This document shows positions 1-3,000 of a DNA stretch of 64,000 bases, piece by piece; within the stretch, counting starts at the first letter, position 1; every line of letters starts with the position of its first letter. The position numbers were made by a program. Origin of the DNA: Escherichia coli (GTDB lineage Bacteria > Pseudomonadota > Gammaproteobacteria > Enterobacterales > Enterobacteriaceae); NCBI RefSeq assembly GCF_017348835.2, contig NZ_CP072317.1. The stretch is one strand, 5' to 3'.

Positions 1-3000
1 ACAGTATTCGCTCTGCATCACCGGTCCGTATACCTGCCGCATGCAATTGCATCAGCAAAGGAGAATGCTGATTTACACTTCTGAGGATAATCCGGATAAG
101 TAACGCTGCAATAATCAGAACAATAAGAATAAAAATAATCAGCTTCATTGTTTATCTGCTCCTGGTAATTAATTATGCTGAATTATTACCTTACATATTT
201 CCATATCTCTTTTGGTATCCTGTCATATAACTTTCCGGTGATTAATTCCGCTAACCGGTGGTCTGCTGCTGAATTAAATGATTCACGTTCACTGTTTAAT
301 AAACTGTCTCTGTTTTTATGAATAATTTTTTCCAGCGTATTGACTGATGAACATCGCCGTAACTGATACAGCCATTCCTGTTTTGTTTTCGCCATTTTTA
401 TTCCCGCTGAGAACAGATGAATGATAAGATTGCCATCGCTTTATTTACGGTGTCTCCATATCCAGGGGGGAACCGGATCAGCATCTGACCAGAGCCCACG
501 TTTTTGTTGTCTGGCTTCGTTCTGAAGGACAGGCAGCACGGGATCTGTGTTGTACTGCTCATATACCCAGGCAGCCCCGGCCCGGACCATAAACTGATTA
601 ACATTCATTCCGTCTGGTGCATAAACCTGCCCGAGAATACGACCATAACGATCTCGCTGAAAATATGTGACGGTAACCGTTTTTCCTGCAACCAGTGATT
701 TCATCATGTCCGTTGACCACCGGCCATAATCCTGTTTCTTTTCCGGTGCATCAATATTTATCAGCCTGATCCGCACTGCCTTCCGTGAGTCCATGACCTC
801 GATGGTATCACCGTCCAGTACACGAACAACCCGTCCATGAATATCTGCACACAATACCGGCCATGAAAAGATAAATAATACCAGTGGAATATATTTCCTC
901 ATGTTATTCTCCATATCAGATAAATGGCACCTGTATTTCAGGTAATCCTGAATATCGCAGCACACACTGAATAACACCTTATTTTGTGAAATTAATCACA
1001 AAATATAAAATCACGACTTAATACGGAAAAAACTCTGTGCTACTCAGAACTGTCCGGTCATACTTCCCGACCGGATATTAAAAAAAGCAAATCTCATGCA
1101 TTATTCAGCCTTCTGAATCCCTGGAGTAATGAAGGCTGCTTTTTCGTTACACCCTTCCCCGGCAGCGCCGGTGGCAGTGTTCAGCCCTTTTTCGGGCAAA
1201 CTGCTGCCAGTCTGTCCGGGGAGCAGACTGCGCAGCCCGTAGCCATGCCTCAGCGGCTCCCGGCCAGTCCCCCCTGACTTCCAGCCGGACAGCCCGGCGT
1301 CCGACCTGCCGGTAGCGCCATACCCCGGAGTTTTGCGAATCACGCCCTGTTCCGTTCATTTTCCTTCCCCCTTTAATCCAGGCCGGTGAATGTGTTATAA
1401 ATTTTTATAACCTTCTTCTGCCGGGTATGGAAGAAGGTTTCAGAGAAGCCTTATTTTTCCGCCTCCTTTAGTGTGAAGGAGGCTTTTTTATTGTTCATCA
1501 AGCACGGCCTGAAGTTCTGCCTTTATCCGGTTCTGGCGGCGGATTTTATCCAGACGCTCTGCCGCATACACTTCTTCCTCCTGAGAAATATGCTCCGTCA
1601 CATACCCTTCCGTGTCATACCGGCAGGCACCGGCTTTCATGGCACACAGATAGCTTTCTGAACGGGTGATGGCCTTCAGCGCCCTGCGCAGTTTTTTATG
1701 CGAGAGCGGGATATTCCGCTGCGCCACGTCTTCCAGTAACACGTCCCGGATACCGCAGGCCAGAAGCCGGGGTGTGTCACCGTCAAATAATCCCGGCCAC
1801 CAGGGTTTCAGGGTGTTCACGGCTTCATCCAGTGTGGGCAGGTTCAGATAAATGGACAGCGCCTGTCTGGCCTGCGCTTTTTTTGCTGTCAGCTCTGCTT
1901 CCCGGGCAGCCTTCTCCGCCAGTTTCTGCTTTTTCACCTTCCATTTTGGTGGCGTGGTGACATTGATGATGGTTTTCCGGCTCCGGGTCGGTGTTTCCCC
2001 TTCCGTTTTCCGTTTCAGTGTCAGTACCGGTCGTTTCTGCTCTGTCATGATTGCCCTGACCTTTGTGAAAATATGTCCTCCAGGTCGTTGAAACTACTCA
2101 CTATGATATTAAGCTGACCTCAACGACCTCTGACATATTAATACCGACAATTAAAGATGTTTTTTAAACCATTGCGTCTGTACTGCCGCCACACGTTCAA
2201 AAAACGCGCCTTCATAAATATCATAATGGCATGCGTCAGCTTCCTCGTATAATTCCTTAGTACCAGAAGCAACAGCATCATATAAGGCTTTTCCCTGTTC
2301 TGGTGGATTAACACTATCCTGGCCGGCAATAACAATCAAAACTGGGCACTGTACTTTGGCTGCGCTCTCTGCCGGTTTATATTGCAACGTCTCCATAACC
2401 GTAAGGAAAGGTATTTTTATATCCATTTCAGGATACTGACCTTTTACCTTCTCGAAGAATACCTTTGATTCATTATCACTCAGTACCCGGGTAACCCCCA
2501 CAAACATCTCTTTCCCGGTGTTTTTCTTCTTCTCTGCCATTTTATTCAGCGTGGACAGAAAAGACGCTCTCTCCGATTCATTCATCTCTCCGGTAACCAG
2601 AACATCACCGTCAGCAAAAGCCAGCTGGCTGACAATACATTTTACGCGTTGGTCCTGCGCAGCTGCACTGAAGACATGCCCCCCTCCCAGCGATGTTCCC
2701 CATAACCCAATACGCTGATTATCAATACATTCCTGCTTTTCTGCCCAATTGATAACTGAAATAATATCTTCGGTCTGCATTGCAGGAACCAGACGCCCTC
2801 GTTCTCCATCACTCTCACCGAATCCTCGATAATCAAAAGTAATCGTTGCGAATCCTGCTTCTGTGAAGGCATTCGCAAAGCAAGGGAGCAGAACATTCCT
2901 GATACCGCAAAACCCATGGCATAAGATAATCAAAGGATGTTTTATATTTCCTTCAGGAACACGAAATGTCAGGGCAATACCTTCAGAGAGTTTGTGATCC

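What the first reader, a model, noticed from the sequence alone, without database searches (positions are those of the whole stretch)
1452..1486. Strong hairpin immediately 3' of finO with T-runs on the plus strand
GCCTCCTT-TAGTGTG-AAGGAGGC is followed by TTTTTT on the plus strand, so it resembles an intrinsic terminator for a plus-strand transcript. No plus-strand gene of 60 aa or more lies upstream, and the adjacent 1000-1450 region is GC-rich with only implausible overlapping ORFs. It may terminate an unannotated small RNA or short ORF, or stabilise the finO 3' end.
Basis: seen in the sequence. Interest (0 to 1): 0.25.

Follow-up and report, generated by a model that had tools for sequence, protein, structure and literature searches.

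The report
Backward-facing terminator beside plasmid finO gene
A short, strongly conserved stop signal for transcription sits right after the fertility-control gene finO of an R100-type resistance plasmid but points the opposite way from every annotated gene around it. It most likely ends an unannotated antisense RNA, which makes it an ordinary kind of element in an unexpected orientation.

Summary
Positions 1461-1483 form an 8-10 bp GC-rich hairpin followed by T6 on the + strand; the T-run overlaps the finO stop codon (1488-1490, - strand). It is among the ~6 strongest terminator-like sites in the 64-kb window (~0.3 expected by chance).

The window is identical to R100 here. Thirteen hairpin variants of four unrelated sequence types were collected from F-like plasmids. 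All keep a hairpin at this spot, inner stem pairs covary, and the T-run is always on the strand opposite finO. G.U wobbles make the stem stronger on the + strand in 5 of the 10 variants folded on both strands and never weaker. A second + strand hairpin (1409-1439) lies upstream.

The best reading is a one-directional intrinsic terminator for + strand (antisense) transcription. The source is either an RNA of the known AS-pc02 family (Rfam hit 1067-1250, predicted promoter 984-1011) or a short ~80-nt RNA starting near 1408.

pSLT-type plasmids lack both the spacer and the hairpin.

No transcript data could be obtained. This is an ordinary kind of element, unannotated, and of modest interest.

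The parts
1461..1483 (+). Terminator hairpin (arms GCCTCCTT / AAGGAGGC; 10 bp with U.G and A-U extension on the + strand RNA)
   Evidence: Conserved with covariation in relatives. More stable on + than on - in 5 of 10 variants and never less stable.
1484..1489 (+). T6 run (U-tract) directly after the stem. The last two T belong to the finO stop codon (1488-1490).
   Evidence: Relatives carry T6-T8 in three of the four hairpin types and a shorter run (CTTTTATT) in the L009 type, always on the strand opposite finO.
1409..1439 (+). Second, upstream hairpin (AACCTTCTTC-N11-GAAGAAGGTT). In F-type relatives the homologous hairpin is followed by TTATTTCCTTTT on the + strand.
   Evidence: The + strand fold is more stable in 8 of 10 variants.
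1440..1460 (+). U-rich single-stranded linker between the two hairpins. The core AAGCCTTATT is conserved between R100-type and F-type plasmids.
1393..1401 (+). Candidate extended -10 element TGtTATAAA (with TTAATC 17 bp upstream), inside the palindrome GTTATAAA-TT-TTTATAAC. It would place a start near 1408, at the base of the upstream hairpin. Weak point: it lacks the conserved final T.
   Evidence: Own PWM scan gave 8.7, close to the top 0.1% of window positions (8.8). Palindrome. Not called by the tool scan. Inference only.
984..1011 (+). Best predicted + strand promoter of the interval (TTGTGA-16-TAAAAT; start near 1018). It lies back to back with a - strand promoter-like site for the nuclease gene.
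   Evidence: 9 of 12 matches; score 10.3, above the top 0.1% of window positions. Conserved in most relatives. Inference only.
1067..1250 (+). Match to Rfam RF02876 AS-pc02 ('antisense to pHK01_099'), a described + strand antisense RNA. The model has no terminator of its own.
   Evidence: (229.5 bits; gathering score 40).
1147..1359 (-). ANR-family small regulator gene (yigA), the gene that the + strand transcript would be antisense to
1488..2048 (-). finO, whose stop codon abuts the terminator

Best explanation
The hairpin plus T-run at 1461-1489 is a one-directional, Rho-independent terminator that acts on RNA made from the + strand, that is, on transcription running towards the 3' end of finO.

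RNA polymerase moving rightwards through the yigA (ANR)-finO spacer transcribes the GC-rich stem and then the U6 tract. The hairpin forms in the exit channel, the weak rU:dA hybrid melts, and the transcript is released at about 1486-1491. Antisense transcription therefore does not enter finO and the tra operon.

The transcript it ends is noncoding. There are two candidate sources. (a) An antisense RNA of the AS-pc02 family that starts in the nuclease-yigA intergenic region (predicted promoter 984-1011, Rfam 5' end at 1067). It would cross all of yigA and would be roughly 420-470 nt if it reaches the terminator. (b) A short ~80-nt RNA starting near 1408, made of the 1409-1439 hairpin, a U-rich linker and the terminator.

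Shown here: the structure, its strength, its conservation with covariation, its strand asymmetry, and its absence in lineages without the spacer. Inferred: that a + strand RNA 3' end really forms there, and which promoter feeds it.
For: (1) The shape is canonical on + only: 8-10 bp GC-rich stem, 3-7 nt loop, U6 directly after. It is the top hit of the terminator scan and among about six comparable sites in 64 kb, against about 0.3 expected.

(2) Thirteen distinct hairpin variants of four unrelated sequence types were collected: GCCTCC type (R100/F), GCCCTCTG type (L009/L023/L033), GCCTTCT type (L029) and a weaker TATCCC type (L026). All sit at the finO stop codon and all have the T-run on the strand opposite finO, with an A-rich flank on the finO strand.

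(3) RNAalifold on ten variants gives 9 pairs, 5 of them with compensatory double changes.

(4) Strand test: G.U wobbles are valid only on +. They make hairpin 1 more stable on + in 5 of 10 variants and equal in the rest. The upstream hairpin is more stable on + in 8 of 10.

(5) A + strand antisense RNA family is documented upstream: Rfam AS-pc02 at 1067-1250, which has no terminator of its own. No other + strand terminator was found between it and 1461. A strong promoter-like site lies at 984-1011.

(6) Precedent in the same backbone: the AS-pc01 antisense RNA (47342-47443, +) ends at a canonical terminator at 47418-47439.

(7) pSLT/Citrobacter-type plasmids, where the ANR-like gene starts 15-20 nt after finO, have no hairpin. 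An isolated finO (L034) instead has a sense-oriented terminator. So the element belongs to the spacer, not to finO expression as such.
Against: No strand-specific transcript or 3'-end data could be obtained. The paper that defined AS-pc02 is not in the library, and the Rfam model stops at 1250, 210 nt short of the hairpin.

All annotated genes nearby are on the - strand, so no coding transcript needs this terminator.

The hairpin persists in plasmids where the AS-pc02 region has been replaced (L004, L005, L011, L019). It was also disrupted by an IS in pMAR7 without loss of the plasmid.

The + strand from 1220 to 1420 is C-rich over G, so Rho could stop an untranslated antisense RNA before it reaches 1461. 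The candidate promoter near 1396 lacks the conserved last T of the -10 hexamer. The promoter scores come from a weight matrix I wrote from memory.
Confidence: 0.68

Rival explanations
1. The hairpin works in the finO-sense (- strand) RNA. It would be a 3' stem-loop that blocks 3'-to-5' exonucleases or marks a processing site, setting finO mRNA stability. On this view the T-run on the other strand is incidental.
For: The stem also forms on the - strand RNA (-13.1 kcal/mol, z = -5.1). It lies 4 nt after the finO stop codon. Homology between plasmid lineages breaks exactly at the hairpin's outer edge in L019, so the hairpin travels with finO.
Against: A T-run of 6-8 (shorter in the L009 type) is retained in four unrelated hairpin sequence types, which a stability hairpin does not need. 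Three variants (R100, L006, L015) carry G.U pairs that become A.C mismatches on the - strand, costing up to 5 kcal/mol. The upstream hairpin shows the same + bias. finO in pSLT-type plasmids does without it.
Confidence: 0.15
2. It is a remnant or neutral passenger, for example the terminator of a convergent gene that has been lost. It would now be carried along with the very widespread finO module without doing anything.
For: No + strand gene is present. The hairpin tolerates IS insertion in pMAR7 and is absent in pSLT-type plasmids. Most copies are near-identical because the backbone is epidemic.
Against: The stem shows compensatory changes and complete sequence replacement while keeping position, orientation and T-run in four lineages. 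A second hairpin with the same orientation bias lies next to it. None of the lineages sampled has a convergent gene ending at this hairpin; where a gene on the opposite strand lies downstream (L028, L029, L030, L034) it is several hundred bases away.
Confidence: 0.1
3. It is a DNA-level element: a palindrome that serves as a protein-binding, recombination or module-boundary site.
For: It is a perfect 8-bp inverted repeat. Two rearrangement end points lie at or inside it (L019, pMAR7).
Against: The arm sequences are not conserved between lineages; only the pairing is. Strand-specific G.U pairing has no meaning for double-stranded DNA. It occurs as a single copy.
Confidence: 0.04

Closest known systems
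Rho-independent (intrinsic) transcription terminators of Enterobacteria
   Same: GC-rich stem of 8-10 bp, short loop and a U6-U8 tract immediately 3' of the stem. Hairpin energy is -11 to -21 kcal/mol across variants.
   Different: It faces against every annotated gene around it, and its U-tract overlaps the stop codon of the gene on the other strand. It is not bidirectional: the upstream flank on + is U-rich, not A-rich. Termination activity has not been measured.
AS-pc02 (Rfam RF02876), antisense RNA of IncFII plasmid pHK01
   Same: Same strand and same locus. AS-pc02 maps to 1067-1250 (+), antisense to the yigA/ANR gene. It is the only documented + strand transcript that could run into this terminator.
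   Different: The Rfam model ends 210 nt before the hairpin and has no terminator. The hairpin is also present in plasmids with no AS-pc02 match. Whether AS-pc02 extends to 1490 is unknown.
AS-pc01 (Rfam RF02875), terminated antisense sRNA in the same plasmid backbone
   Same: A + strand noncoding RNA antisense to a - strand gene. It is built of 5' hairpins plus a canonical terminator (47418-47439 + T5), the same layout as the hypothetical 1408-1490 RNA.
   Different: AS-pc01 has experimental support (it is the basis of an Rfam family). The 1408-1490 RNA is only predicted. There is no sequence similarity.
FinP / RepX, two-stem-loop antisense RNAs bound by FinO
   Same: A ~75-80 nt RNA with two stem-loops, the second being the terminator, encoded on an F-like plasmid. 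The hypothetical short RNA would have this outline.
   Different: The FinP model gives no match here even at E <= 10. The spacer between the stems is 21 nt rather than 4. The positions below the terminator stem are a C/U pyrimidine mismatch, whereas both known FinO ligands have a purine-purine mismatch there (PMC12001967).

Membership tests
Intrinsic (Rho-independent) terminator, + strand | GC-rich stem of at least 5 bp with a loop of 3-8 nt | tested here: met
   8 perfect bp (10 with U.G and A-U), 5-6 G-C pairs, loop of 3-7 nt.
Intrinsic (Rho-independent) terminator, + strand | U-tract starting within 0-2 nt after the stem | tested here: met
   TTTTTT at 1484-1489. Relatives have T6-T8 in three of the four hairpin types and CTTTTATT in the L009 type.
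Intrinsic (Rho-independent) terminator, + strand | Structure maintained by selection (covariation) | tested here: met
   5 of 9 pairs show double compensatory changes across 10 variants, and there are four unrelated stem sequences.
Intrinsic (Rho-independent) terminator, + strand | An RNA 3' end or measured termination at the site | not testable with these tools
   No transcript data are available. The pHK01 sRNA paper and the R1 finO-distal-region paper are not held.
Intrinsic terminator for finO (- strand) | U-tract after the stem on the finO strand | tested here: not met
   The - strand flank is GGAAAAAUAA in R100 and A-rich in all variants.
Bidirectional terminator | A-tract 5' of the stem and U-tract 3' of it, so that both strands read hairpin + U-tract | tested here: not met
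   The + strand 5' flank is TTATTTTTCC (U-rich). The - strand has A-rich flanks on both sides.
Rfam RF02876 AS-pc02 | Match of the interval to the covariance model | tested here: not met
   The model matches 1067-1250 in full (positions 1-185 of 185). Nothing from it covers 1452-1486.
FinP-like FinO ligand | Match to the FinP model, and a purine-purine mismatch below the terminator stem | tested here: not met
   No FinP hit at 1400-1495 at E <= 10. The flanking positions are C and U, against the A-G mismatch of FinP and RepX (PMC12001967).
Dispersed repeat (REP-like palindrome) | Multiple copies | tested here: not met
   Single match in the window at up to 3 mismatches.

The most novel reading that the evidence does not exclude
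The 128-bp finO-yigA spacer of F/R100-type plasmids may be a compact gene for an undescribed ~80-nt cis-antisense small RNA. It would be convergent with finO and consist of a start near 1408, a 5' stem-loop at 1409-1439, a U-rich linker with the conserved core AAGCCUUAUU, and the terminator at 1461-1489.

Such an RNA would be complementary to read-through finO/tra transcripts. It could set the finO mRNA 3' end or uncouple yigA from finO. pSLT-type plasmids, which lack the spacer and couple the two genes directly, would lack this control.
Probability: 0.2. Interest if true: 0.5.

Novelty: new member of a known kind. Interest (0 to 1): 0.27.

Why it matters
finO sets the level of FinP and thereby the transfer frequency of F-like plasmids, the main carriers of resistance and virulence genes in E. 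coli. This region is found in 3084 of 5426 complete E. coli genomes.

A conserved terminator that faces into the 3' end of finO implies an antisense transcription unit next to finO. That unit is absent from current annotation: RefSeq lists only the FinO and ANR genes there. If the antisense RNA is real, it is a candidate regulator of the ANR-family gene yigA or of finO mRNA 3'-end formation. If it is only an insulator, it is a clear example of a terminator kept solely to stop antisense transcription from entering an operon. Either outcome is a modest addition, not a new principle.

Tried and rejected
**Literature**
- The paper that defined AS-pc02 (Jiang et al. 2017, FEMS Microbiol Ecol fix090) and Nuk et al. 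2011 (finO-distal region of R1) are not held.
- Papers citing them give no coordinates.
- Searches for a finO terminator, for AS-finO and for the early R100 finO sequence papers found nothing useful.
- My recollection that the pHK01 paper also lists an 'AS-finO' RNA could not be checked and is not used.

**Known RNAs and annotation**
- IesR-1, the known pSLT antisense RNA, is at a different locus.
- FinO RIP-seq in Salmonella is uninformative here because pSLT lacks the hairpin.
- I guessed NC_013727 to be pHK01. It is pEG356, which has the same backbone and the same annotation.

**Readings rejected**
- Bidirectional terminator: the flanks are wrong.
- A + strand small protein: ORF 1129-1242 is frameshifted in relatives. 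ORF 1473-1661 is merely antisense to finO.
- FinP-like FinO ligand.
- Repeat element.

**Limits of the searches**
- The genome-contig scan gave only 11 loci, mostly near-identical.
- The tblastn search of plasmids saturated at 5000 close relatives. More distant FinO lineages therefore came from the protein database and contig look-ups.
- Promoter assignment from sequence alone could not separate + strand from - strand use of the AT-rich patch at 1393-1411.

Full report
**What is there**

The window is R100-type IncFII DNA. Positions 1380-1620 are 100% identical to R100 (NC_002134). The annotated genes around the finding all lie on the - strand:

| Gene | Coordinates |
|---|---|
| traI | 3836-9106 |
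| traX | 3070-3816 |
| alpha/beta hydrolase | 2151-3011 |
| finO | 1488-2048 |
| ANR-family regulator (yigA) | 1147-1359 |
| thermonuclease-family gene | 441-902 |
| hha | 186-395 |

The arms GCCTCCTT (1461-1468) and AAGGAGGC (1476-1483) are followed by TTTTTT (1484-1489). The finO stop codon (TAA, read as TTA at 1488-1490 on +) overlaps the end of the T-run.

As RNA, the + strand folds to -15.3 kcal/mol (10 bp, z = -4.5). The - strand folds to -13.1 kcal/mol (8 bp). On the - strand the stem is followed by GGAAAAAUAA, so only the + strand has the form of an intrinsic terminator. On + both flanks are U-rich, so it is not a bidirectional terminator.

**Is it more than chance?**

It is the best terminator-like site in 1-4000. 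A scan I wrote for the whole window, on both strands, found about six loci with a hairpin of -13 kcal/mol or better and at least 6 T in the next 8 nt. Twenty first-order Markov simulations of the window gave six such hits in total, about 0.3 per window. The sequence is single-copy in the window.

**Comparative evidence**

The region occurs in at least 5000 plasmid records and in 3084 of 5426 complete E. coli genomes. I collected finO 3' flanks from plasmids, genomes and assemblies.

Thirteen distinct hairpin variants fall into four unrelated sequence types:

| Type | Found in | Stem and tail |
|---|---|---|
| GCCTCC...GGAGGC | R100, F-like, Klebsiella, Shigella | inner stem varies, e.g. TTTA/TGAA, CCGG/CCGG, GC/GC; then T6-T8 |
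| GCCCTCTG-TCATA-CAGAGGGC | L009, L023, L033 | then (G/T)CTTTTATT |
| GCCTTCT...AGAAGGC | L029 | then T8 |
| TATCCC...GGGATA (weaker) | L026, Salmonella salamae | T5 a few bases after the stem |

In every case the T-run is on the strand opposite finO and runs into the finO stop codon, and the flank on the finO strand is A-rich. RNAalifold on ten variants gives nine pairs, five of them with double compensatory changes.

**A strand test**

G.U pairs on one strand are A.C mismatches on the other. Hairpin 1 is more stable on + than on - in 5 of the 10 variants folded and equal in the other five. Examples are L006 (-14.6 against -9.8 kcal/mol), L015 (-14.9 against -9.7) and R100 (-13.9 against -11.7). 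No variant favours the - strand.

A second hairpin lies 22 nt upstream (1409-1439 in R100). It is also kept in three sequence forms and is more stable on + in 8 of 10 variants. In the F-type plasmids it is followed by TTATTTCCTTTT on +, which makes a tandem arrangement.

**Where the element is absent**

In pSLT and related Salmonella/Citrobacter plasmids (FinO 71-78% identical), an ANR-like gene starts 15-20 nt after the finO stop, and there is no spacer and no hairpin. An isolated finO next to hipA (L034) has an ordinary sense-oriented terminator instead. In pMAR7 an ISEc13 copy sits inside the hairpin. The element therefore belongs to the ~130-bp finO-yigA spacer of the E. coli-type plasmids and is not needed for finO as such.

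**What could it terminate?**

No + strand protein gene is present. The only candidate ORF upstream (1129-1242, 37 aa) is frameshifted by indels in relatives. The - strand ORF at 1147-1359 is a real, conserved ANR-family gene.

Rfam places AS-pc02 (RF02876, 'antisense to pHK01_099') at 1067-1250 on the + strand with 229.5 bits. The same family is found in the same relative orientation in seven related loci. That model has no terminator of its own, and neither scan found any other + strand terminator between it and 1461.

The best + strand promoter-like site in 900-1480 is TTGTGA-16-TAAAAT at 984-1011. It lies back to back with a - strand site that suits the nuclease gene. A transcript from there to the terminator would be about 470 nt, or about 424 nt from the Rfam 5' end, and would be antisense to all of yigA.

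A second possibility is a start near 1408 from TTAATC-17-TGtTATAAA (score 8.7, close to the top 0.1% of the window). This would give an ~80-nt RNA of 5' hairpin, U-rich linker and terminator. That promoter lacks the conserved last T of the -10 hexamer. The same AT-rich patch also offers -10-like hexamers on the - strand for yigA, so sequence alone cannot decide. The weight matrix used for these scores was written from memory and is approximate.

AS-pc01 in the same window (47342-47443, +) ends at a canonical terminator. Terminated antisense sRNAs are therefore a known feature of this backbone.

**Mechanism proposed**

Polymerase transcribing the + strand towards finO makes the GC-rich stem and then the U-tract, and releases the RNA at about 1486-1491. 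This ends a noncoding antisense RNA and keeps convergent transcription out of finO and the tra operon.

The structure, conservation, covariation and strand bias are shown here. The existence of the 3' end, the feeding promoter and any regulatory effect are inferred. Because the + strand from 1220 to 1420 is C-rich over G, Rho might already stop part of the antisense transcription, in which case the hairpins would act as a fail-safe.

**Rivals**

- A stabilising stem-loop in finO mRNA is possible as a side effect. It does not explain the invariant T-run or the wobble asymmetry.
- A relic is unlikely given the sequence turnover with retained structure, position and orientation.
- A DNA-binding palindrome is unlikely because only pairing, not sequence, is conserved.
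- A FinP-like FinO ligand is not supported. There is no FinP model hit. The bases below the stem are a C/U mismatch, whereas the two known FinO ligands have a purine-purine mismatch there (PMC12001967).

**Verdict**

This is an unannotated but ordinary kind of element in an unusual orientation. It is a new member of a known kind and of modest interest. It gives a testable lead that F/R100-type plasmids carry an undescribed antisense transcription unit ending at the finO stop codon.

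Noticed in passing
An ANR-like gene follows finO in nearly all lineages sampled, either after a ~130-bp spacer (E. coli types) or 15-20 nt after the stop codon (pSLT/Citrobacter types). finO and ANR therefore look like a conserved gene pair.
   Followed up: partly
window 1067-1250 (+): Strong match to Rfam AS-pc02 (229.5 bits). The family is not detected in L004, L005, L009 or L011, although an ANR-like gene is intact in L004, L009 and L011 (truncated by an IS in L005). Part of the model overlaps the ANR coding sequence on the other strand, so its apparent conservation may be partly a coding constraint.
   Followed up: partly
window 980-1011: A perfect CRP-type palindrome TGTGA-N6-TCACA at 985-1000, the only one in the window against 0.1 expected. 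It is embedded in a 10-bp inverted repeat and overlaps the -35 of the predicted + strand promoter (TTGTGA-16-TAAAAT, 984-1011). A back-to-back - strand promoter-like site (TTTTCC-17-TATATT) lies upstream of the nuclease gene. The palindrome is conserved in most relatives.
   Followed up: partly
window 1394-1411: An AT-rich perfect palindrome GTTATAAA-TT-TTTATAAC between the ANR start codon and the upstream hairpin. It offers -10-like hexamers on both strands. It is specific to the R100 type; F-type plasmids have TAAATAAT / TATTAT motifs at the same place.
   Followed up: partly
window 2082-2129: A 10-bp perfect inverted repeat AGGTCGTTGA / TCAACGACCT with a 28-nt loop in the spacer between the hydrolase gene (orf286) and finO. 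It could form a large stem-loop just upstream of the finO ribosome-binding region.
   Followed up: no
L024 (pMAR7, NC_010862) about 600-621: An ISEc13 copy is inserted inside the 5' arm of the L009-type hairpin, leaving only the 3' half next to finO.
   Followed up: no
L009 about 300-350: In the L009 lineage the ANR-like gene also has a hairpin (CCCCCG-N11-CGGGGG). Its T-run (TTATTTTTA) lies on the opposite strand and runs into the gene's stop codon. This is the same backward-facing design as at finO.
   Followed up: no
window 6181-6257, 15648-15733, 47342-47443 (all +): Rfam matches to the other pHK01 antisense RNA families: AS-traI, AS-traG and AS-pc01. Only AS-pc01 ends at a canonical terminator (47418-47439).
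   Followed up: partly
window 1473-1661 (+): A 62-aa ORF starting with GTG inside the hairpin and running antisense through the finO 3' end. The hairpin's 3' arm provides a Shine-Dalgarno-like AAGGAGG. It is most likely a by-product of the finO frame and was not examined further.
   Followed up: no
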